DNA of 48,241 bases from a virus. Its lineage: Duplodnaviria > Heunggongvirae > Uroviricota > Caudoviricetes. Under the pieces are notes generated by a model. That model was not told the DNA's origin. It was given only the letters and a program-made list of their open reading frames with translations, and ran no database searches. The stretch covers positions 1 through 48,241 of IMG/VR virus record IMGVR_UViG_2617270956_000008; one strand, written 5' to 3'. Of the stretch, positions 20,756-33,711 are shown in pieces (the first letter of the stretch is position 1; the number at the start of each line of letters is the position of its first letter). Position numbers and translations under genes: made by a program.

Positions 20756-22251
20756 TATGCGGACTCCTCTGAATACTGAAGACGGAACTGGTTAACCACG
20801 GCAAAGACACGCAACTGGTTAACATAGTCAGGCGGGAACAGCGTGTTCAGGCGGTTCGGATCGCTGGCATCACGCTCCACAACCAGGTACTGCTTAAAAA
20901 GTTCGTAGTTTTCCACAATCCCCGCACGCTCGAGCTGACGGTAGGTTGCCAGCAGTTCCCCTTTGATCACCGCCGGGGTGACAATCGCCTGACCGGGACC
21001 AAAGCGGGTACCGTCGCTGGCAAGCTTGTGACGCCCGTACTTACTGGTAATGACGGATTTCAGTTTGCGCAGCACATACGCGCTGGTATGCAGCGTCTCG
21101 CTGTCGAGGTAGCTGTTATCCGCAACACCGTAAGCGTTTTTCCTGTACGTGGTGACATCACGCTGAATGCGCAGCACCCCGCTTTCGACATACGCCGTTG
21201 CCACGCCATGAGACAGCAGGGTCTGTTGTTCGGTCATCGTGAACCGTTTCCCCTTCGGCGCAGGCAGCATACCCACCAGCTCACCGGTCTGCGTGGGACG
21301 TGCCGGATCGTTGCGAATAAACACCGCTGCGCGGGCGGTACGGCTTGCCGCCAGCTCGTCGGCAGGCGTCTGGGTCTCTTTTTCGTATCCCGCCAGGGTA
21401 ATGTGCTGCTGGTTAAACTGGTCACCTGCGGTCACCAGTTCTGACAGCGTGCCGATCTTTGCCGTATACACATGACCATACAGCTGACGCGCATAGCTCC
21501 AGCGACCGCTGGTATCGTTCATCTCGGTCACCAGCGTGTTAACGGAGGCTGTGTCGTTGAACGGCAGGCCGATATAATCAAACGGCTCATCCGCCATTGC
21601 AGCCACCGCGCCGGTGAGAACCGGAGCACCCGTTCCGGCGGTACCCGTCGCCACGGCAATCTGTACGCCCGCTGGCAGCACTTCGCCCCCACCAAAGCCG
21701 TAGTAATTGAGGCTGACAGGAATTTCATTCCCGCAAAGCCCCTTATGACGCGCGGTCAGCGTGACAACACCAGCCGAAGATGAAGCTGTAAACGGCAGAG
21801 TCGGAACGGCATTGATGGCATCTTTGATACTGCTGGCAATCGTCGTGACGTTATCGCCGTTGGTCACCGAAGCCTGCACGCGGGTACGTCCCACATAGAC
21901 ATTCACCGTGCCGCTTTCGGTTGCTTCCCCGGTCACCGTCAGCGTAACCGTTGCCGCCGCGCCTGTGGCTTCCGGAACGGCAATCACATACAGCTCACCA
22001 AACGGGTCGGTCTGGCGATAAGCCTCGACCATACGCGCCAGCTGACTTCCCGCACCACAAATCTGGCGTGCATAGTCTGCCGACGGCATCAGCACCAGAC
22101 TGTTGGCAACAATCTCTGCACCGTTATTGGCATGACCAATCAGCAGCGATGCCCCGCTGTCCTGTGCAGTATTCGCAGCCTGGTTATCCATTTCCGCATA
22201 AAACAGCGGAACCAGCGTATTCGACGGAATGGTGTTAAAGCTTATCGTCAT
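20755..22251 (-). CDS. contractile tail sheath protein (Mu gpL-like), 498 aa
   Basis: Size and position; followed by tube and chaperone genes. Confidence 0.85.
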   Translation of the reverse strand: MTISFNTIPSNTLVPLFYAEMDNQAANTAQDSGASLLIGHANNGAEIVANSLVLMPSADYARQICGAGSQLARMVEAYRQTDPFGELYVIAVPEATGAAATVTLTVTGEATESGTVNVYVGRTRVQASVTNGDNVTTIASSIKDAINAVPTLPFTASSSAGVVTLTARHKGLCGNEIPVSLNYYGFGGGEVLPAGVQIAVATGTAGTGAPVLTGAVAAMADEPFDYIGLPFNDTASVNTLVTEMNDTSGRWSYARQLYGHVYTAKIGTLSELVTAGDQFNQQHITLAGYEKETQTPADELAASRTARAAVFIRNDPARPTQTGELVGMLPAPKGKRFTMTEQQTLLSHGVATAYVESGVLRIQRDVTTYRKNAYGVADNSYLDSETLHTSAYVLRKLKSVITSKYGRHKLASDGTRFGPGQAIVTPAVIKGELLATYRQLERAGIVENYELFKQYLVVERDASDPNRLNTLFPPDYVNQLRVFAVVNQFRLQYSEESA

Positions 22252-25491: not shown

Positions 25492-26091
25492 TTATGCATT
25501 AAGAAGGGTCAAAAGGCGCTCACGCGCCATTCGTTCGTTAACAGCTTTCTTCAGCGCACCACTCGCCCGCGCTTCCTGCCAGGCTTTCATTGAGCGGACA
25601 CCAGAGTCTGCGTCCTGATAGGCCGGATATGTCACCGGGCTGACGTCATACAGACGAGAAATGCGCGTGATTTCCCGGATAACAATCCCCTCGTCGTCTT
25701 CATACCAGCTCTCTCCGTCACGGGCGACACGAAACGCGAACGAGGACTGATTAATGTCACCACGCAACATTGGAGACAGCACCAGGTCACAAATAGTCGG
25801 AGTATCCGGTGCAACAATGTCATAACGTAAACCGCGTTCATCCACCGACAATGACAACGTGCCGGCAGAACTTCGTCCGAGAATGAAATTAGGATCATGA
25901 TTAAACAAGCCACGTACATCATCATTCAGTACATCGTCAAAAGCCCCCGGCTTGATGATTTCACGAAATCCCCACAGAGGTTCTGAACGACTGTTAAATA
26001 CCGAGCCATACCCCAGAATGTGGGTCGGGGCATTATCATATTGTTCTGCCCGCACTTCCCCGCTGTAACAGCGCGTCTCACGGTCATTCAT
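25492..26091 (-). CDS. prohead protease (HK97 family, S78-type), about 199 aa
   Basis: ATG at 26089-26091 with GAGGA SD, overlapping the portal TGA (ATGAATGA). The track ORF extends to 26130 but that start lacks an SD. Confidence 0.8.
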   Translation of the reverse strand: MNDRETRCYSGEVRAEQYDNAPTHILGYGSVFNSRSEPLWGFREIIKPGAFDDVLNDDVRGLFNHDPNFILGRSSAGTLSLSVDERGLRYDIVAPDTPTICDLVLSPMLRGDINQSSFAFRVARDGESWYEDDEGIVIREITRISRLYDVSPVTYPAYQDADSGVRSMKAWQEARASGALKKAVNERMARERLLTLLNA

Positions 26092-27310
26092 CGTTCTTTT
26101 CCTCTTTGCCTTTCGTATCTTTAAAATCATTCAACGGATTTGCTGCATTTACGCTGACCAGCATTTCATCCAGACCATCAACCGGGTTCATGTCCTCAAA
26201 TGCCCTCGCTTCATTCCGGCTCATCCAGCCATCTGTAATGGCAAAGTGATAGAACTGCGCACGCTCCTGTGGGGTCCCACGGAGCAACCCTGTGAGGTTG
26301 AAACGAACGTAATACCCGGCAGCCCGTTCTGTACGGGTAAACAGGCGACGGTTAAGCTCCTGCTCCCAGTTCGCAACCCAGGGCATCATCGTGTAGCGAA
26401 CAAACTGAATCGCCTGCTGTGTAATATTCGAAAATGTGGCTTTTTCCAGGTCATTAATCATGTGCGCAGGAATATTGAAAATACCGGCAATCATTGAACG
26501 GTTCAGTTTCATCATGTCAATGATTTGAGCGTCAACTGGCGACACAGTCAGTGCCTTGTAATCCAGATCGGCTGGCAGCAGCATGGTTTTGTTTTCCTGG
26601 CTGCGTAACGCCTGCGATGCCTTCTGCCACTGATCTTTAAGCCAGCCCCAGCTGTCCTTATTGAGTCCGCTTTTAACGGATACTATCCCCGCCGGACGGG
26701 CATTACCGCTGAAGAAGCTTTCTGTGTATTTCTGACCGCTCATCCCCATGCCTATTGTTTCGGCATGTTGCATAATCGGACTAAGCCCCATCTTCTGATT
26801 ATTACCCAGCGCACGGATGTGGATCATATCGTCGGGGCTGATCGCAAACGCCCCATATTCGTTGTACAAACCGTAGGTGTATCGGCCACCAGTATTCATC
26901 AGCGTCGTTTCCCACGGCATACAGCAATCCAGGGATATGACTTCACCGCGACGATTACGTTTCACCCAGGTATACCCATTTCCCCAGCCAAGGATGTGAC
27001 GTTGCTTCAGTTCGCGCCATTTGTAACTGGTTTGCCAGGTATTGGGCTCATCATGAACCAGATAAAACGCCGGATGATCGCGTGCGGGCTCAACCTTCCC
27101 ATTGTGCCTGCGCATAACATGCAACGGCATCTGGGCAAGGCTGGAAGACAGGACATAGATACAGGAATACACCGCAGCCAGTTTCATCGCAGTTTCAGGA
27201 CTGACATAAACGTCTGCCCGGAACAGCCCATCAGTATCAACGGCATCCCCGGTTATCGGGGTGGAAGGATTCTCCAGTGATTTACTTCTGAACAGAGCAT
27301 CAAGCAGCAC
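26084..27310 (-). CDS. portal protein (HK97 family), 408 aa
   Basis: GTG start with AAGGGGG SD; size and position between the terminase and protease genes. Confidence 0.9.
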   Translation of the reverse strand: MLLDALFRSKSLENPSTPITGDAVDTDGLFRADVYVSPETAMKLAAVYSCIYVLSSSLAQMPLHVMRRHNGKVEPARDHPAFYLVHDEPNTWQTSYKWRELKQRHILGWGNGYTWVKRNRRGEVISLDCCMPWETTLMNTGGRYTYGLYNEYGAFAISPDDMIHIRALGNNQKMGLSPIMQHAETIGMGMSGQKYTESFFSGNARPAGIVSVKSGLNKDSWGWLKDQWQKASQALRSQENKTMLLPADLDYKALTVSPVDAQIIDMMKLNRSMIAGIFNIPAHMINDLEKATFSNITQQAIQFVRYTMMPWVANWEQELNRRLFTRTERAAGYYVRFNLTGLLRGTPQERAQFYHFAITDGWMSRNEARAFEDMNPVDGLDEMLVSVNAANPLNDFKDTKGKEEKNDE

Positions 27311-27461
27311 GCGCCCCCCTTCTGGCCATAGCCAGTGCGCCCACCAGCAGTAAACCGCCGGACAGCATCAGAGCCGGAGCCATACCAAACTGCAGGTAAA
27401 ACCCGCACGTAAGCAGGCCAAAACCAGCCAGCCCGATAACATCAGCAATTATTGATTTCAT
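27300..27461 (-). CDS. small hydrophobic protein (53 aa) between terminase and portal
   Basis: Not in the ORF track. ATG overlaps the TerL stop (ATGA) and its TGA overlaps the portal start; predicted two-helix membrane peptide [46 protein letters not shown]. Confidence 0.4.
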
Positions 27462-29191
27462 AGAATTAAGAGAGCATCGTCCGGATCAAGAGATGAGAGG
27501 AAATCGTCGGGTTCTTTGAACATTGCCCGACCGATCGCCATAATCAGTGCAACCGCACCATCGATTTTGTTTTCCGCCTGCTCCTTGACAGGCTTCACCA
27601 CATCATCGTTACCAGGAATGGTTTTGCCGACCACGTTGCCGATACACCAGGTCATGATGGGATTGCCGTCATGATGAAAGCGCCCCGATTCAATCGCCGC
27701 TTCCAGCTCTTTCATCGGATCGGACATGTTGGTGTAGTTCTGAATGATAGTGATGGGGTTCAGGTCTTCATCAGCAAGGTCATGTGACAACCCGGTCGCC
27801 CCGAAGGGGTCGATGGGTGACTCACTGACCGGGCTGATTTTGTTCGCCGCTTTGGCCTCCTCGAGGATGTAGCGATAATCCACCTCCGCACCATCGGTAA
27901 CGGTCAGAACGCCCATTTCCACCCATTTCTGAAAGCGTTCGGCTGTCCGTCGATCTTCATTTTTCTCGACGCTGTACACCGTGTCATACGGTACCCAGAA
28001 ACGCGGGGCCACACTGTAGTAATGCGTTTTACCGTCAATCTCGCGGGTATAAAGTCGCGCCATGCTGTTCATATCCAGCTTACGCGCCAGGTCAAAGGCC
28101 AGAATGCACGGCTGCCCCTCGAACTGCTCAAGGGTCAATGATTTATCCTCGCAGCTCTGCCAGCTCACCAGGTTGAAATACGCCGAACGCGCCGACACCC
28201 AGATATTGAGGTGTTTTGTTTTAAAGACGTTTGCCAGACGGGCGTTATTTTTCGCACGCTGCTGCTGACTTAACAAAAATTCGCGATAAACCGACACGCC
28301 AATATTTGGATTGGCTTTTTCCAGCACCTGCGGGTCGGTCCAGTCATCACCTTCATCAACGGTATAGATGATCCCGAACAGTTCATCGTTGGGTACCGAA
28401 CCGTTGAGCATCTCGATGACTTCCCGCCGTTTGTCGTAGCACGGCCCCTCAATGTTGTATCCGGCGGTGGTGATAGCCCACATCAGTGGCTGACGTCGCG
28501 CCCCCATCCCGGTAAGCATCGTGGTATAAAGCGCATCGGTGGCGTGCTCGTGATATTCATCCACCACCGCACAGTGGGGTGATGAACCATCACCGGGGTT
28601 ACCGATCAGCGGTTCAAACCGCGCGCCATCCTCCGGACGGTTCATGTTTGAGGCGTTAACCTCAATCCCGAACGCTTCCGTCAGCATGGGTGTGCGTTTA
28701 CACATCAGTCGAGCCGGGCGAAAGACTTCCCACGCCTGTTTCTCTGTCGTGGCACCGGAATACACTTCCGCGCCAAACTCGTTATCACAGGCAAAACAAT
28801 ACAGGGCAACACCGGCAGAGATTGCCGATTTGCCGTTCTTACGAGGGATTTCGGTATACACCTCCCTGAAGCGGCGCAGCCGGGAGCCTTTATTGACCCA
28901 GCCAAACGCACAGCAGATCACAAAGAGCTGCCACGGCTCCAGCGTGATGGGCATCCTCTTGAATGCCCACTCACCCTTGGTGTGCGGCAACAGCTGAATA
29001 AATTTCGCGGCCCGTTCAGCCAGGTCCTTGTCGAAGCGGTAACGAAACAACTTACTTTTTTCCTCCATCAGGTCATCAAGATGGCGCTGGCAGGCCTGAA
29101 TCACAAACTGGCAGGCCACAATCTTTCCGCGCACGACATCACGGGCATACTGATTGGCAGCATTTACGTTGGGGTAAGATTTCCGGCTCAT
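27458..29191 (-). CDS. terminase large subunit, 577 aa
   Basis: Size, position after TerS with an ATGA overlap, and a terminase-type ATPase plus nuclease layout. Confidence 0.9.
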
Positions 29192-29682
29192 GATTCGATG
29201 ATTTTCAGAAACGGGTTAGTGGCTTTCTTCTGCCCCGCCAGGCCAATCAGACGCTGGCGGCTGCTGGGGTCGAGTCCGAGCATTGCCCCCGTACTGTTCA
29301 TCTCGGACTCCTGTTCTTTTTTGGCGGTCAGCTCCGGATTTTTGACCCTGCCGCCCATTGCACCGATGATGGTGTTGCCCTGTCTGGCAATATTTTTCAC
29401 GGCACGTCGCCAGAACTCGTAGGCCACGCACCACCGCTCAAGCACCGCGAGGTCAGTCACGCACAGCAGGCCCTGACCACAGAGTTCTTTGGTTGTCAGT
29501 TGCCACATGATCGTGGCGAGAGGGAGATCTTCTTCAGCGAACCACTCCGGTGGCTCAACACCTTTGATGGGCGTAAAAACAGGTTCATCTTTATTCAGGG
29601 CTCGCTTGCCGGGGTTTCCGGCCAGCGCCTTGCGCGCCGTTGGCTTGGGGCGACGCCCGGAACGCCCCGCCGTTCCAGCCAT
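29188..29682 (-). CDS. terminase small subunit (P27 family), about 164 aa
   Basis: ATG at 29680-29682 with AGGAG SD 8 nt upstream (the track start is an upstream GTG); N-terminus [14 protein letters not shown] typical of P27-type TerS. Confidence 0.8.
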
Positions 29683-29691
29683 ATGCGGCAC

Positions 29692-29807
29692 TCCTGGTTA
29701 AATTTCATTTTTCGCGGGTATAAAAAAACGATGGGGCGGGCAGTCCGGAAGACGTCAGGTCACAGGGATTTGCCCCGCCCCTCCCCTCTGGCAGTGGGAA
29801 CTGGTTC
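29692..29807. other. candidate cos/packaging-site region between HNH and TerS genes
   Basis: 116-bp intergenic region with a GC-rich imperfect inverted repeat GGGGCGGGCA ... TGCCCCGCCCC. HNH-plus-terminase phages usually place cos here. Confidence 0.3.
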
Positions 29808-30158
29808 TTACTTCAGCCGTTCACGGGCCGTCTTCGCCTTATGACACGGCCAGCACAGGCTCTGCAGATTACTGTCTGCATCGGTGCCGCCATGCGCTTT
29901 AGGGATGATGTGATCAACGGTTTTCGCCTCACGCACCACACCAGCACGCAGACATAACTGACACAGGCCTTTGTCACGCTTGAGCACACGTTCACGGATA
30001 ACATCCCATTTCGAACCATAACCGCGCTGATGACGGGATTGTCCTGGCTTGTATTGCTTCCAGCCTTCGCTTTTGTGGCTTTCGCAGTAGCCTGACGGGT
30101 CAGTCGTGGTATTGCGGCAGCCGCGAACACGGCAGGCTTTTGGGGTTCGTGGTGGCAT
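29808..30158 (-). CDS. HNH endonuclease (terminase-associated), 116 aa
   Basis: Cys pairs CxxC ... CxxC with a DHIIPKAHGG HNH core; located just upstream of TerS. Confidence 0.85.
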   Translation of the reverse strand: MPPRTPKACRVRGCRNTTTDPSGYCESHKSEGWKQYKPGQSRHQRGYGSKWDVIRERVLKRDKGLCQLCLRAGVVREAKTVDHIIPKAHGGTDADSNLQSLCWPCHKAKTARERLK

Positions 30159-30229: not shown

Positions 30230-30838
30230 CTATAAAATGTGCTCTAGAATCCGCATATTTCCTTCAAAAAGTATTTCCTTTTTTAACGGATCAACTATTT
30301 CACCACTCCAATATTTATGAGCTTTTTCTAAGGCAATATCATACGGTATATCGTCATTCATCAAATGTTCATCACTCGCCTCATGTATAACTCCATCCAA
30401 CTCAACTCTGAACACAGTCTGATTGTCCCCCAATCCCAACTGCGAAATCCAATAGTGAAGACTTTCTTCACCTTGTGAAACCCATAAGCATTTCTGTCTT
30501 GAAGGCTTTTTTGGGTAATATTCAACTCGAACGGCTTCCCAAATCAGTTCTCTAGTATATTTACAAAAATGCATAGCCAATTCTTGACCAACTGCCGCTA
30601 TATCCTGTACAGAACACTTAGTAGTAAGTGACCCTGTCTTTAGGCCATAAAGCCACTGCATTCTCGTATAGTCAGTTAGATGCCCGTTAACATTTACTGG
30701 TATTGGAGGGATGTTTGAACTTAAGAAATAATTAAAAAAGGGATTTGGGAATGAGGTGCTAGCTAAATCTCCTACTGCCAAAGGCCTATACTTAACCCAA
30801 GGATTTTGCGATTTAGTTGCTATGTAAAAATAGTCCAT
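30230..30838 (-). CDS. hypothetical protein (202 aa), AT-rich moron downstream of lysis cassette
   Basis: ORF in AT-rich DNA between Rz and HNH; preceded by two 12-bp direct repeats (CTTACCACTATA on the plus strand at 30844-30855 and 30866-30877). Confidence 0.55.
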   Translation of the reverse strand: MDYFYIATKSQNPWVKYRPLAVGDLASTSFPNPFFNYFLSSNIPPIPVNVNGHLTDYTRMQWLYGLKTGSLTTKCSVQDIAAVGQELAMHFCKYTRELIWEAVRVEYYPKKPSRQKCLWVSQGEESLHYWISQLGLGDNQTVFRVELDGVIHEASDEHLMNDDIPYDIALEKAHKYWSGEIVDPLKKEILFEGNMRILEHIL

Positions 30839-30943: not shown

Positions 30944-31411
30944 TTACTTCCGACACTGAGTGTCAATATATTCCTGTAACGCTCTCAATGATGCTTGATC
31001 TCTGATAATTCCGGATCTGATACCGAGAAGGTTTCGTCCAGCAATTGGAGAGAGTTCGACGGTGGCATCATTGCCCACGCTGGCGGTGCCGGAGGCTTTT
31101 GTTGTGGCTGGCACTGGACATTTGCCTTTGACGAGCACCCTACCACCATTATCAAGCTTGCGCCGAAGAGCATCATTTTCAGCTTTCGCATCAGCTAACT
31201 CCTTCGTGTATTTAGCATCAAGTGCATCAGCATCACGCTGGCGCTGCTGCATGTCAGTAATGGTGGCGGTCGCCAGCTGCAGCTCACTAACTTTTTTATC
31301 GCGCTGGTCTTTATAGGTGATGGCGTTGTCACGGTAATGATTAACAGACCATGACAGGCAGACGATGATGCAGATAACCAGAGCGGAGATAATCGCGGTG
31401 ACTCTGCTCAT
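30944..31411 (-). CDS. Rz: i-spanin Rz, 155 aa
   Basis: N-terminal half [21 protein letters not shown]...[22 protein letters not shown] closely matches lambda Rz as recalled. Confidence 0.85.
30985..31191 (-). CDS. Rz1: o-spanin Rz1 (lipoprotein) embedded in Rz, +1 frame
   Basis: Embedded ORF with lipobox LIMVVGCSS and a proline-rich stretch KPPAPPAW, as in lambda Rz1. Confidence 0.75.
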
Positions 31412-31884
31412 GCCTCCATCTCTCTGACCGTTCCGCCAGCTTCTTTAAATTTTGCAATCAGGCTGTCAGCCTTATGCTCGAACTGACCGTAACCAGCCCC
31501 CGGCAGTGAAGCCCAGATATTGCTGCAACGGTCGATAGCCTGACGAATATCACCGCGATCAATCATCGGTAAAGCGCCACGCTCTTTAATCTGCTGCAAT
31601 GCCACTGCGTCCTGGCTTTTGGGGGAGAAGTCTTTCAAACCAAGCTGTTTACGGTAAGCATCCCACCAGCGTGAAAGAAGCTGATAACGCCCGGCGGCTG
31701 TTGATTTGAGTTTGGGGTTTAGCGTGACAAGTTTGCGAGGGTGATCGGAGTAATCAGTAAATAGCTCTCCGCCTACAATGACGTCATAACCATGATTTCT
31801 GGTTTTCTGCCGTCCGTTATCCGTTCCTTCTGACCATGCCACCATATCGAGGAAAGCTTTACGCTGGGAATTTAGTATCTGCAT
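31408..31884 (-). CDS. R: endolysin (lambda R-type lytic transglycosylase), 158 aa
   Basis: Sequence [47 protein letters not shown]... is near-identical to lambda R as recalled. Confidence 0.9.
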
Positions 31885-31887
31885 AAA

Positions 31888-32223
31888 TTACTCCTTAGAG
31901 CCACTAAACTTATTACCGATTACTCGCATTGCAGCTCCACGAATGGCATCAACACCGATCAGCCCAACGCCACCACCAATGGCAACAGAAAGCGATTTAG
32001 GCCATCCGACATACTCAAGCGCGGATGCAAAAGTCAGCGTCAGAGCACCACAGAGCAAAATCTCGAGCGTTTTTCGCTTCCAGCCACCACCTCCGCCAAA
32101 ATAGGCGATACGCAAACCAGCCATAACGATCGACATAATCACTGCCCCCAGCGGGGTGTCTCCACGCCACCAGCTCTGGAACAACTCCAGCCAGTCCGGC
32201 CAAGTATTTGGGTTATGAGGCAT
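31888..32223 (-). CDS. putative holin, 111 aa
   Basis: Immediately upstream of the endolysin; hydrophobic segments and a charged C-terminus. Confidence 0.6.
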   Translation of the reverse strand: MPHNPNTWPDWLELFQSWWRGDTPLGAVIMSIVMAGLRIAYFGGGGGWKRKTLEILLCGALTLTFASALEYVGWPKSLSVAIGGGVGLIGVDAIRGAAMRVIGNKFSGSKE

Positions 32224-32319: not shown

Positions 32320-33711
32320 TCACTTAATAGGATTTGGTTTTATGTCGTCAAGCCAGTCGTTATCACCTCTTAGCTTGGCTACTCGTCCTTCAACATTAGT
32401 TAACGGTTTATAAGCAGAGTATTTGCCTATAGCCCTAGCAGAATGCTCTCCAGCAACACGATAATTTTGGAAGTCCAACTCAAGTCCATGCTGCTCCGCT
32501 CTCATTCGAATATAACCACGAAGCATGTTTTCTCTAAATCGAAACCAAGATGGACGATTCCCTAAAGCAGGGATGATGATGCATCCAAATGTCGGTTTCT
32601 TCAATGCATTGAACTTTCGCTCAAACGTGGATTTATCTAAAGGTGTTACATCAAGCGATTTGCAAATTTTAACGTACGATTCTGATATATGAGTCTTATG
32701 TCTGGTCAAATCAGCCATATCGGACATAGCCCAAAGAATATGCTTATATGACTCATCACGTCCCTCTGTTGCATCCGTGTAACTTTGCCTTAAAGTTTCC
32801 GAGACTGAATCAATTGCATCATTTAACCCTTTAATGAAAAGGTTGTAATCAACAGAGCTGTATTCACGTATTGAGCTTTGACATGTTAAAAGGATTTTTT
32901 CACAAATAAGATGAATGTAGTTCGGGAACCCGTCACTAAGACCCGCAATTTTATAGCGGACAGAATCATCGACAGTCAGGCCAAACTCATCGAAAGCATT
33001 ATCAATTATTTGAAAACGACCATTCCATGGTAAACTATCGAGATGTACCTGATGTATTTGTCGCTCACTTGATTTATGCCCTCCGATTAAAGTAACGAGA
33101 GAATCACCAATCCCCGTAAAAATTAATTTTACTTCACACGCCTGATCACCAAGTTGTTTAATGAGTGATCCAAACTTTTGTCGTTCTTCATCAGAGTCAA
33201 TTTGGTCAAACTCATCGATAACTATATAAGGAATCTTTGAGTGAACTTTAGTTAAAAATTGCAACGCCCGAACGGCTGCAGAAACTGAGTCAATTTTCAG
33301 TTCTGGATAATTATATTTTTGATTTTGACCAGCATTGATACCACCAATTCCAGCCACATTTAAGCCAAAGCTCCATCCCTGTGTATCGATTTTCTTATCC
33401 TGAGGTGTGCCTCGCAAAATAATGTCATTCATGACACTTGAAAAAGTGGATTCTTTCTCGCAGCCAACCAAAATAGGTTCAGCATCTTCCTGCAGCTTAA
33501 AAGCAACAGTTTGCGCTAAGGATGTCTTTCCTACTCCGCGATCACCATAAATGAAAGCATGCCGACCTGTAGCATAAAGCGCCAATTCGAGATCGGTTAC
33601 ATGTTTTTCACGTCCAAATAACAGTTCCATAGAAACAACTGGACCCGTTGGTCGCAAAACTTTATGCAGTTTATGCATAAAGTCTCGCAAAGAAAGACCT
33701 CCACAGAGCAT
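32320..33711 (-). CDS. P-loop NTPase (AAA/ORC-like ATPase) of unknown function, 463 aa, moron
   Basis: ATG with AGGAG SD; Walker A GDRGVGKTS and Walker B YIVIDEFD; LFGRE motif before Walker A; AT-rich (sampled blocks about 35-42 percent GC); between Q-like gene and holin. Confidence 0.7.
   Translation of the reverse strand: MLCGGLSLRDFMHKLHKVLRPTGPVVSMELLFGREKHVTDLELALYATGRHAFIYGDRGVGKTSLAQTVAFKLQEDAEPILVGCEKESTFSSVMNDIILRGTPQDKKIDTQGWSFGLNVAGIGGINAGQNQKYNYPELKIDSVSAAVRALQFLTKVHSKIPYIVIDEFDQIDSDEERQKFGSLIKQLGDQACEVKLIFTGIGDSLVTLIGGHKSSERQIHQVHLDSLPWNGRFQIIDNAFDEFGLTVDDSVRYKIAGLSDGFPNYIHLICEKILLTCQSSIREYSSVDYNLFIKGLNDAIDSVSETLRQSYTDATEGRDESYKHILWAMSDMADLTRHKTHISESYVKICKSLDVTPLDKSTFERKFNALKKPTFGCIIIPALGNRPSWFRFRENMLRGYIRMRAEQHGLELDFQNYRVAGEHSARAIGKYSAYKPLTNVEGRVAKLRGDNDWLDDIKPNPIK

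What the first reader, a model, noticed from the sequence alone, without database searches (positions are those of the whole stretch)
29692..29807. Candidate cos site between HNH endonuclease and TerS
The 116-bp intergenic region holds a GC-rich imperfect inverted repeat (GGGGCGGGCA ... TGCCCCGCCCC). In HK97-like phages the HNH protein assists terminase cleavage at a cos site located here.
Basis: partly seen in the sequence, partly recalled or inferred. Interest (0 to 1): 0.4.

Follow-up and report, generated by a model that had tools for sequence, protein, structure and literature searches.

The report
Known phage cos packaging site

Summary
GGGGCGGGCA (29733-29742) and TGCCCCGCCCC (29771-29781) lie in the 116-bp gap between an HNH gene and a P27-family terS, all on the minus strand.

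The cos interpretation is supported. The reverse complement of 29733-29742, TGCCCGCCCC, is exactly the 10-nt stretch missing from run-off sequencing of phage SfI virion ends. It aligns with the 'cos-site' feature of phage phiP27 (CGCCCGCCCC). The SfI and Edwardsiella phage EPP-1 records end and begin exactly at window 29733|29732.

The inverted repeat itself is not the signal. It is only weakly unusual and does not covary across about 30 Enterobacterales relatives.

The site has three separately conserved blocks:
- an upstream G-run plus AAATCYCT (29763-29785);
- GGAC plus the cohesive end (29733-29746);
- a nearly invariant TTTTTTATACCCGCGAAAAATGAAATTTAA (29698-29727), placed where HK97 TerS binds its own DNA.

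HK97 shares the upstream half in the same register, although its TerS shows no detectable sequence similarity. E. coli phage satellites carry only the 83-bp core (29703-29785).

Verdict: an already known cos type, correctly called, of low interest. The block architecture and the cos-pirating satellites are modest extras.

The parts
29808..30158 (-). HNH endonuclease gene (116 aa), the last gene before cos. It is the counterpart of HK97 gp74 and SfI SfI_0066.
   Evidence: Pfam PF01844, E 2.3e-16. PHROG 144 HNH endonuclease, E 2e-46. 38% identity over 65 aa to HK97 gp74, E 2e-10.
29763..29785 (-). Block A: GGGAGGGGCGGGGCAAATCCCTG, an upstream conserved G-run plus AAATCYCT. It lies on the DNA end that is packaged last. 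Proposed role: part of the nuclease (TerL/HNH) recognition or termination signal, analogous in position to lambda cosQ.
   Evidence: Columns 9-31 of alignment A2 are conserved across about 30 Enterobacterales loci. GG at 29779-29778, G at 29775, AAATC at 29771-29767 and CT at 29765-29764 are invariant or nearly so. Satellites that keep nothing else of the phage retain this block. HK97 has it with the same 34-nt spacing to the cut. The function is inferred.
29747..29762 (-). Variable spacer between block A and the cleavage block. Its length is conserved but its sequence is not.
   Evidence: Low information per column in A2; only one gap column in 30 sequences.
29733..29746 (-). Predicted nicks: on the coding (window minus) strand between 29733 and 29732, and on the window + strand between 29742 and 29743. 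These give 10-nt 3' overhangs.
   Evidence: Exact match to the 10-nt gap found by run-off sequencing of SfI virion ends (PMC3636060). Aligned with the phiP27 'cos-site' feature. The SfI and EPP-1 records end at this base and start at the next. HK97's overhang CGCCGCCAAA aligns in the same register. The exact sequence occurs once in the window. The 3' polarity is inferred from the 'gap' result and from HK97.
29698..29727 (-). Block C: TTTTTTATACCCGCGAAAAATGAAATTTAA, at +6 to +35 from the coding-strand nick, with an internal dyad ATTTTT-N9-AAAAAT. Proposed binding site of the P27-family small terminase (a cosB equivalent).
   Evidence: It is the most conserved stretch of the intergenic region, nearly invariant across about 30 species from about 20 genera whose TerS proteins are 70-97% identical. 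It lies directly upstream of a P27-family terS in every IMG/VR match long enough to show the neighbouring gene, apart from satellite copies, one locus with no detectable homologue and one chance match. It occupies the interval where HK97 TerS binds: essential bp 15-29, a G plus an A-tract (PMC11331095). Binding itself is inferred.
29703..29785 (-). The 83-bp core shared with E. coli phage satellites that have no HNH, TerL or P27-type TerS. This is an operational estimate of the minimal cos.
   Evidence: Megablast hits H54 and H55 cover only this stretch at 94-96% identity. The alignment shows homology starting and stopping sharply at its edges. Satellite context.
29188..29682 (-). Small terminase gene (P27 family). 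The likely start is ATG 29682, with Shine-Dalgarno AGGAG at 29695-29691.
   Evidence: Pfam PF05119, E 1e-20. PHROG 83, E 4e-59. Start position as annotated in SfV and SfI and conserved in the alignment.
27458..29191 (-). Large terminase gene (ATPase plus nuclease domains).
   Evidence: Pfam PF03354 and PF20441. 25% identity over 520 aa to HK97 gp2, E 3e-29.
26084..27310 (-). Portal protein gene.
   Evidence: Pfam PF04860, E 2e-98. 27% identity to HK97 gp3, E 6e-43.

Best explanation
Window 29698-29785 (minus strand) is the cos site of an SfV/SfI/phiP27-type lambdoid prophage of E. coli.

Proposed mechanism, each step marked as shown or inferred:
1. Concatemeric phage DNA is cut here by the large terminase together with the adjacent HNH endonuclease. 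Staggered nicks flank TGCCCGCCCC (29742-29733) and leave 10-nt 3' cohesive ends. The cut position is shown for relatives; the polarity and the enzymes are inferred by homology with HK97.
2. The P27-family small terminase recognises the nearly invariant A/T-tract-flanked ACCCGCG element 6-35 bp downstream of the cut (29727-29698). This positions the nuclease and sets the packaging direction towards terS, terL and portal, that is, towards lower window coordinates. This step is inferred from conservation and from the HK97 TerS footprint at +15 to +29.
3. The conserved G-run/AAATCYCT block upstream (29785-29763) is part of the signal read by the conserved TerL/HNH side, for cleavage or for termination at the end of the preceding genome. 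This is inferred from its retention in satellites and in HK97 at identical spacing.

It is not a selected hairpin.

The confidence of 0.88 applies to the identity of the site and the position of the cohesive end. Step 2 I would put at about 0.6 and step 3 at about 0.45.
For: Gene context HNH-cos-TerS-TerL-portal.

Cut position:
- Exact identity of 29733-29742 (reverse complement) with the 10-nt gap found at SfI virion ends (sequences).
- The phiP27 'cos-site' annotation aligns with it.
- The SfI and EPP-1 records terminate at exactly this base.
- Records of HK97-type phages differ by exactly the aligned 10 nt at their ends.

Conservation: three conserved blocks appear in 30 sequences from about 20 genera of Enterobacterales.

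Link to HK97:
- A position weight matrix (PWM, a column-by-column scoring profile) of blocks A+B from this family scores 25.7 bits on HK97, ending exactly at the last base of the HK97 record. The highest score in 300 random 80-kb sequences was 18.9.
- HK97 makes 10-nt 3' overhangs, its HNH stimulates cos cleavage, and its TerS binds bp 15-29 downstream of the cut (PMC9410871, PMC11331095).
- TerL, HNH and portal are homologous to HK97's.

Satellites retain only the 83-bp core. The region is present in 1166 of 5426 complete E. coli genomes.
Against: - There are no physical data for this particular prophage. It could be defective, although the head, tail, lysis and replication modules look complete.
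- The polarity of the overhang in the SfI group is my inference from the word 'gap'; the paper does not state it.
- TerS has no detectable sequence similarity to HK97 gp1, so the TerS-site analogy rests on position and composition only.
- The SfV record starts 7 nt upstream of the 10-mer, so the depositors of SfV placed the end differently.
- One satellite and one Atlantibacter prophage have a substitution inside the 10-mer (TGCCAGCCCC). The sequence is therefore not absolutely fixed.
Confidence: 0.88

Rival explanations
1. The inverted repeat is the functional element. It would form a hairpin or cruciform, or a symmetric binding site, recognised by terminase/HNH, with cleavage organised around its dyad.
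For: The repeat exists, is G+C-rich, and is the only such repeat in the window. In register, 78% of alignment cells can pair, against 50-56% when the partner column is slid.
Against: - The experimentally defined cohesive end coincides with one arm, not with the dyad centre.
- RNAalifold finds essentially no consensus structure: -1.7 kcal/mol, 4 pairs, no compensatory change.
- The longest complementary run within a sequence (mean 5.73) is no better than between arms taken from different species (5.54; 1266 of 10000 permutations reach the observed value).
- Covariation measures do not exceed shuffles.
- Many relatives keep only 3-5 complementary bases.
- Fold z-scores are -1.0 and -1.6.
Confidence: 0.07
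2. The stem followed by ATCGTTTTTTT on the transcribed (minus) strand is an intrinsic terminator ending the lysis/HNH transcript.
For: On the minus strand the arms are followed, 4 nt later, by a run of 7 T.
Against: - The loop is 28 nt, and the terminator scan reports nothing here.
- The stem is not conserved.
- In most relatives the T-run is only T5, and it is part of the invariant ATTTTTATACCCGCGAAAAAT block rather than a tail.
- terS, terL and the head genes lie immediately downstream on the same strand, and no sigma-70-like promoter is found between. Termination here would therefore cut off the packaging genes.
- From general knowledge of lambdoid phages (not tested here): late transcription is antiterminated.
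Confidence: 0.04
3. The sequence is a cos homologue but a dead one: the prophage is cryptic and the site is no longer used.
For: Nothing in the window shows induction. Prophages of this type are very common in E. coli, and many prophages are defective.
Against: - All three blocks match functional phages, with 3 differences from SfI over 89 bp and none in invariant columns.
- HNH, TerS, TerL, portal, capsid, tail and lysis ORFs are intact.
Confidence: 0.12

Closest known systems
cos site of Shigella/E. coli phages SfI, SfV, SfII, SfIV (serotype-converting, SfV-like myoviruses)
   Same: - The same gene order: HNH-cos-terS-terL.
- An identical 10-nt cohesive-end sequence, TGCCCGCCCC.
- 3 differences from SfI across the 89-bp conserved core (29698-29786).
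- The SfI record termini fall at window 29733|29732.
   Different: - Three point differences from SfI: G for T at 29773, C for T at 29766, and A for G at 29732.
- This prophage carries other cargo between the lysis genes and HNH: a DUF2441 gene at 30230-30838.
- There are no physical end data for this prophage itself.
cos site of Stx2e phage phiP27 (GenBank AJ298298, misc_feature 'cos-site' 21806-21815)
   Same: All three blocks are present in the same order and spacing. The annotated 10-mer CGCCCGCCCC aligns with window 29742-29733. TerS belongs to the P27 family.
   Different: - About 81% identity over the 77 nt of the region that align.
- The first base of the 10-mer is C, not T.
- Block C is altered after CGCGAAA (ATTAAAAATTT).
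- I could not read the basis of the depositors' annotation.
HK97 cos (10-nt 3' overhang, gp74 HNH-stimulated cleavage, TerS site at +15 to +29)
   Same: - HNH immediately upstream and terS immediately downstream; the terS ATG is 50-51 nt after the cut in both.
- A G-run plus ATCAAATC block with an identical 34-nt distance to the cut.
- 'AC' directly before a YGCCSCC-type 10-mer.
- An ACCCG motif next to an A/T tract downstream of the cut.
- TerL, portal and HNH are homologous.
   Different: - TerS shows no detectable sequence similarity: BLASTP finds nothing, and HK97 gp1 does not hit PF05119.
- The downstream (TerS-side) half of cos cannot be aligned.
- The overhang sequence differs: CGCCGCCAAA in HK97, TGCCCGCCCC here.
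lambda cos (cosQ-cosN-cosB, 12-nt 5' overhang, Nu1/IHF)
   Same: The tripartite logic is the same: an upstream element on the end packaged last, a nicking site, and a TerS-side element adjacent to terS.
   Different: - No HNH in lambda, and the overhang has the opposite polarity.
- No lambda cosN sequence is present here: the best matches in the window have 1-2 mismatches, lie elsewhere, and occur at chance frequency.
- The terminase families are different.
SaPIbov5-type cos satellites of S. aureus HNH-cos phages
   Same: The E. coli islands next to clpS likewise carry a copy of the helper-type cos plus a capsid-protein homologue, and they lack HNH and TerL (PMC5052747).
   Different: They are in a different host and have unrelated sequences. 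The E. coli islands also encode TerS-like proteins of other families (PHROG terminase-small-subunit families 141 and 57). Mobilisation by SfV/P27-type phages is untested.

Membership tests
SfI/SfV/phiP27-type cos site | Lies between an HNH endonuclease gene and a P27-family terS, followed by terL and portal on the same strand. | tested here: met
   ORFs and Pfam hits. The same arrangement is seen in SfI, SfV and phiP27 and in 93 of 120 IMG/VR matches; most of the rest are truncated at a locus end.
SfI/SfV/phiP27-type cos site | Contains the 10-nt cohesive-end sequence YGCCCGCCCC defined at virion ends. | tested here: met
   The reverse complement of window 29733-29742 is TGCCCGCCCC, identical to the SfI gap (PMC3636060). 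It is the only exact copy in the window.
SfI/SfV/phiP27-type cos site | Flanking sequence homologous to the cos region of the type phages. | tested here: met
   93-97% identity over 101 nt to SfII, vB_EcoM-720R4, 118970_sal3 and ST64B. The joined SfI ends align end to end with the window.
SfI/SfV/phiP27-type cos site | Virion DNA of this phage has its ends at the site. | not testable with these tools
   This needs induced particles. The only available evidence is by homology.
HK97-type (HNH-dependent, 3'-overhang) cos packaging system | HNH, TerL and portal homologous to HK97 gp74, gp2 and gp3. | tested here: met
   BLASTP E-values of 2e-10, 3e-29 and 6e-43.
HK97-type (HNH-dependent, 3'-overhang) cos packaging system | Small terminase homologous to HK97 gp1. 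| tested here: not met
   No BLASTP similarity. HK97 gp1 has no PF05119 hit. No solved relative was found by sequence. Fold-level similarity was not tested.
HK97-type (HNH-dependent, 3'-overhang) cos packaging system | cos DNA similar to HK97 cos. | tested here: inconclusive
   The upstream half plus the overhang matches in register: 25.7 bits, against a random maximum of 18.9. The downstream half shares only ACCCG plus an A/T tract at a similar distance.
HK97-type (HNH-dependent, 3'-overhang) cos packaging system | 10-nt 3'-protruding ends. | not testable with these tools
   The length of 10 nt is supported. The 3' polarity is inferred: run-off reads on SfI left a gap rather than an overlap, and HK97 has 3' overhangs.
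lambda-type cos | cosN GGGCGGCGACCT with Nu1-type TerS. | tested here: not met
   No match within 2 mismatches in or near the region; there are 4 matches elsewhere against 2.7 expected by chance. TerS is PF05119 / PHROG 83.
Intrinsic (Rho-independent) terminator | A conserved G+C-rich stem with a short loop, immediately followed by a U-run. | tested here: not met
   The loop is 28 nt and the scan makes no call here. The stem is not conserved and does not covary.

The most novel reading that the evidence does not exclude
The upstream G-run/AAATC block (window 29763-29785) may be a so-far undescribed packaging signal. It is conserved in sequence and in its exact 34-nt distance to the cut, both in P27-type cos sites and in HK97 cos sites. 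The TerS proteins and TerS-side DNA of these two groups show no detectable similarity.

On this reading, HNH-dependent cos sites would be modular:
- an ancient nuclease-side half read by TerL/HNH (a cosQ/cosN-like unit);
- an exchangeable TerS-side half.

An 83-bp unit of this kind would then be what a widespread family of E. coli satellites next to clpS copies in order to be packaged by SfV/P27-type helper phages.
Probability: 0.4. Interest if true: 0.4.

Novelty: already known. Interest (0 to 1): 0.2.

Why it matters
For this window it matters little. It confirms that the prophage is a cos-packaging, HNH-dependent phage of the SfV/P27 type, and it fixes the genome ends to the base (29733|29732 and 29742|29743). 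That is useful for annotation and for predicting the virion chromosome.

The comparative by-products are of modest wider use:
- a base-resolution three-block map of a cos type present in about one fifth of complete E. coli genomes;
- a candidate TerS site for the P27 family, for which sequence search found no solved structure;
- an upstream element shared with the HK97 model system, which could be tested directly in the existing HK97 in vitro packaging assay;
- a common class of E. coli satellites that appear to pirate this cos.

Tried and rejected
- **Hairpin or cruciform reading of the inverted repeat.** Rejected after RNAalifold, a within- versus between-species complementarity permutation and pair counts showed no co-evolution of the arms.
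- **A local hairpin inside block A** (GTAG...CTAC versus CAG...CTG variants looked like covariation by eye). Pair counts did not exceed shuffles, so I dropped it.
- **Intrinsic terminator.** No scan hit and no conserved stem.
- **Homology of TerS to HK97 gp1.** None by BLASTP, Pfam or PDB sequence search. I ran no further search on it.
- **A lambda-type second cos in the satellites or the window.** No lambda cosN was found.
- **Using IMG/VR contig ends as physical-end evidence.** The matches are mostly prophage-derived pieces, and contig ends did not coincide with the cut, so this was uninformative.
- **Papers not held in the library**: Allison 2002 (SfV) and Kala 2014 could not be retrieved by id, and a term search for the phiP27 genome paper found nothing. 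The SfV cos assignment and the basis of the phiP27 annotation were therefore not checked at source.
- **tRNA-like T-arm resemblance of GGGTCAAATCC.** ARAGORN finds no tRNA in the window, so I treated it as coincidence.

Full report
**1. What is in the sequence**

All relevant genes are on the minus strand. Reading that strand, the order is:
- lysis genes: holin 31888-32223, endolysin 31408-31884, Rz 30944-31411;
- an inserted DUF2441 gene (30230-30838);
- an HNH endonuclease (29808-30158; Pfam PF01844, E 2e-16);
- the intergenic region;
- a small terminase of the P27 family (29188-29691 from a GTG; PF05119, E 1e-20);
- a large terminase (27458-29191; ATPase plus nuclease domains);
- a portal (26084-27310).

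The perfect inverted core is 8 nt with 33 nt between the arms. Homologues begin terS at the ATG at 29682, behind an AGGAG Shine-Dalgarno (ribosome-binding) sequence. The true gap is therefore probably 125 bp rather than 116 bp.

**2. Is the repeat more than chance?**

Only marginally.
- The window holds 51 perfect inverted repeats with arms of at least 8 nt and loops of 3-40 nt. About 0.12 are expected per 116 nt.
- 6.8% of dinucleotide shuffles of the region contain one.
- Folding the region is unremarkable: z = -0.97 as RNA and z = -1.57 as DNA.

On statistics alone the repeat would not stand.

**3. What the region is**

Megablast against phage records finds the HNH-terS stretch at 93-96% identity in several E. 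coli and Salmonella phages. It finds partial matches in SfV, SfIV, SfI, SfII and ST64B that stop inside the intergenic region, because those linear records begin and end there.

The SfI paper reports direct sequencing of virion DNA ends from primers in HNH and terS. Compared with the prophage, the virion reads lacked '10 nucleotide (5'-TGCCCGCCCC-3')' (PMC3636060). That 10-mer is the reverse complement of window 29733-29742 and occurs exactly once in the window.

Further agreement on the same position:
- The SfI record ends ...GGACTGCCCGCCCC and starts GTCGTTTTTTTATACCC... Joined, it aligns with the window end to end, with 3 differences over the 89-bp conserved core (29698-29786).
- Edwardsiella phage EPP-1, isolated from wastewater, has a record ending ...GTACTGCCCGCCTC and starting CCCCAATTTTTATGACCGCGAAAAATG. 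Its termini fall at the same position.
- The phiP27 record carries a misc_feature 'cos-site' on CGCCCGCCCC, which aligns with the same 10 columns.

Polarity is an inference. A run-off read stops at the 5' end of its template, so a gap between the two run-offs, rather than an overlap, means 3'-protruding ends. This matches the 10-nt 3' overhangs of HK97 (PMC9410871 and PMC11331095).

**4. Anatomy from comparison**

A scan of one genome per species with the TerS protein gave 31 loci from about 20 genera of Enterobacterales, with 70-97% TerS identity. The region upstream of terS aligns almost without gaps. Per-column information shows three conserved blocks separated by variable sequence of fixed length.

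- **Block A**, window 29785-29763: GGGAGGGGCGGGGCAAATCCCTG. The invariant positions are GG, G, AAATC and CT.
- **Block B**, 29746-29733: GGAC plus the 10-mer, with consensus ACYGCCSCCYC.
- **Block C**, 29727-29698: TTTTTTATACCCGCGAAAAATGAAATTTAA. It is nearly invariant and contains a dyad ATTTTT-N9-AAAAAT.

An exact search for ACCCGCGAAAAATGAAA in IMG/VR returned 120 matches. Of these, 93 show HNH upstream and TerS plus TerL downstream. Most of the others are cut by locus ends, four are satellite copies and one is a chance match.

**5. The inverted repeat is not the selected feature**

- RNAalifold on the 30 sequences gives 4 pairs, -1.7 kcal/mol and no compensatory change.
- The longest complementary run between block A and block B averages 5.73 nt within a sequence and 5.54 nt between sequences. 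1266 of 10000 permutations reach the observed value.
- In Photorhabdus, Xenorhabdus, Morganella and others only 3-5 complementary bases remain.
- A local hairpin that I suspected inside block A also failed the same test.

The repeat arises because a G-rich block and a C-rich cohesive end are each conserved.

**6. Relation to HK97**

Protein comparisons:
- HNH: 38% identity over 65 aa, E 2e-10.
- TerL: 25% identity over 520 aa, E 3e-29.
- Portal: 27% identity, E 6e-43.
- TerS: no detectable similarity to HK97 gp1.

The cos DNA mirrors this split. The HK97 right end reads ...CAGGGGGGGGGATCAAATCTTCAAAACCTTTGCCCCAAATGAC CGCCGCCAAA. It has a G-run plus ATCAAATC, exactly 34 nt from AAATC to the end (as in the window), and 'AC' before the 10-mer.

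A position weight matrix (PWM) of blocks A+B, built only from the P27-type family, scores 25.7 bits on HK97. The match ends on the last base of the HK97 record. The best score in 300 random 80-kb sequences was 18.9, and the second-best score in the 48-kb window is 0.6.

HK97, HK022 and HK75 records end after CGCCGCCAAA. HK633, HK140 and AsXd-1 records end just before it. This confirms that these 10 nt are the overhang and that the register is right.

Downstream of the cut the two families cannot be aligned, but the layout is the same:
- the terS ATG is at +50 in HK97 and +51 here;
- HK97 TerS needs bp 15-29, a G plus an adjacent A-tract (CTAACCCGATTTTTT);
- here +15 to +29 is CCCGCGAAAAATGAA, the invariant heart of block C.

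I therefore propose block C as the TerS site, and blocks A+B as the part read by the conserved TerL/HNH nuclease. Both proposals are inferences.

**7. Independent support from satellites**

Two E. coli hits covered only window 29703-29785, at 94-96% identity. They lie at the very end of about 10-kb islands next to clpS. These islands encode a primase (DUF927), Icd-like and SSB proteins, a capsid or protease-capsid fusion, a decoration protein, and TerS-like proteins of other families (PHROG 141 and 57). They have no HNH, no TerL and no P27-type TerS.

Homology to the phage starts at GGGAGGGGCGGG and stops at GAAAAATGAAA. At least 80% of a 391-nt fragment from the satellite end is present in 338 of 5426 complete E. 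coli genomes. Four IMG/VR contigs show the same junction.

An element that keeps only this 83-bp stretch of a phage is what a cos-pirating satellite should look like; SaPIbov5 and its HNH-cos helpers are the known parallel (PMC5052747). This argues that blocks A, B and most of C together make up the functional cos. Mobilisation has not been tested.

**8. Rivals**

- **Terminator reading.** It fails on loop length, on the lack of a conserved stem, and on the T-run being part of invariant block C.
- **Structural-hairpin reading.** It fails the covariation tests.
- **Dead site in a cryptic prophage.** This cannot be excluded without induction. However, every invariant column is intact, and the structural, lysis and replication genes look complete.
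- **Lambda-type cos.** None is present.

**9. Verdict**

This cos type has been in the literature for more than a decade, and similar sequence is found in 1166 of 5426 complete E. coli genomes. The finding is therefore already known and of low interest.

What may be new is modest:
- the three-block map;
- the candidate TerS site of the P27 family;
- the upstream block shared with HK97 in exact register;
- the abundant satellites that carry only the cos core.

I could not read Juhala 2000, Kala 2014, Allison 2002 or the phiP27 paper, so some of this may already be described there.

Noticed in passing
L005 9001-9083 (NZ_CP024855.1 365089-365171) and L006 9001-9083 (NZ_CM135151.1 4030497-4030579); corresponds to window 29703-29785: Phage-satellite-like islands of about 10 kb next to clpS end with a copy of only the 83-bp cos core. 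They encode a primase, Icd-like and SSB proteins, a capsid or protease-capsid fusion, a decoration protein and TerS-like proteins of other PHROG families. They have no HNH, TerL or P27-type TerS. At least 80% of the 391-nt end fragment is present in 338 of 5426 complete E. coli genomes. They probably pirate SfV/P27-type helper phages, as SaPIbov5 does in S. aureus.
   Followed up: partly
L004 681-733 (HK97 right end) compared with window 29733-29785: HK97 cos shares the upstream G-run/ATCAAATC block, the 34-nt spacing to the cut, and 'AC' before the overhang with the P27-type cos. The family PWM scores 25.7 bits, ending exactly at the HK97 record end. The TerS proteins and the TerS-side DNA of the two families show no detectable similarity. 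I did not find this described in the papers I could read.
   Followed up: partly
window 29704-29724: Block C contains a conserved dyad, ATTTTT-N9-AAAAAT, around ATACCCGCG. Both arms are invariant, so covariation cannot be assessed. It may reflect A-tract shape read-out by an oligomeric TerS.
   Followed up: no
window 30230-30838 (-): A 202-aa DUF2441 protein (PF10386, PHROG 9842, unknown function) is inserted between the Rz spanin gene and HNH. SfV has no such gene at this position. It has no PADLOC hit.
   Followed up: partly
window 32320-33711 (-): A 463-aa AAA/STAND-like ATPase (PF13191 AAA_16, weak nSTAND1, PHROG 6841) lies just upstream of the holin, a typical cargo position in lambdoid prophages. 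Its only PADLOC match is marginal (mad8, E 2e-4). It could be a defence gene.
   Followed up: partly
window 29680-29695: The mechanical ORF starts at GTG 29691. The conserved start is ATG 29682, with an AGGAG Shine-Dalgarno at 29695-29691, as annotated in SfV and SfI.
   Followed up: yes
L001 1-17 (SfV U82619.2 left end): The SfV record starts 7 nt upstream of the 10-nt cohesive end (TCCGGAC|TGCCCGCCCC). The deposited SfV termini therefore do not coincide with the cut positions found for SfI. SfIV and VIT_AJPSC copy the same start.
   Followed up: partly
L130 2270 (+) and L121 2474 (-), IMG/VR loci: L130 has complete blocks A-C but no detectable homologue of the window's HNH, TerS or TerL nearby. 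L121 has block C and TerS/TerL but a divergent upstream half and no HNH within 1.2 kb. These may be further modular variants of this cos type.
   Followed up: no
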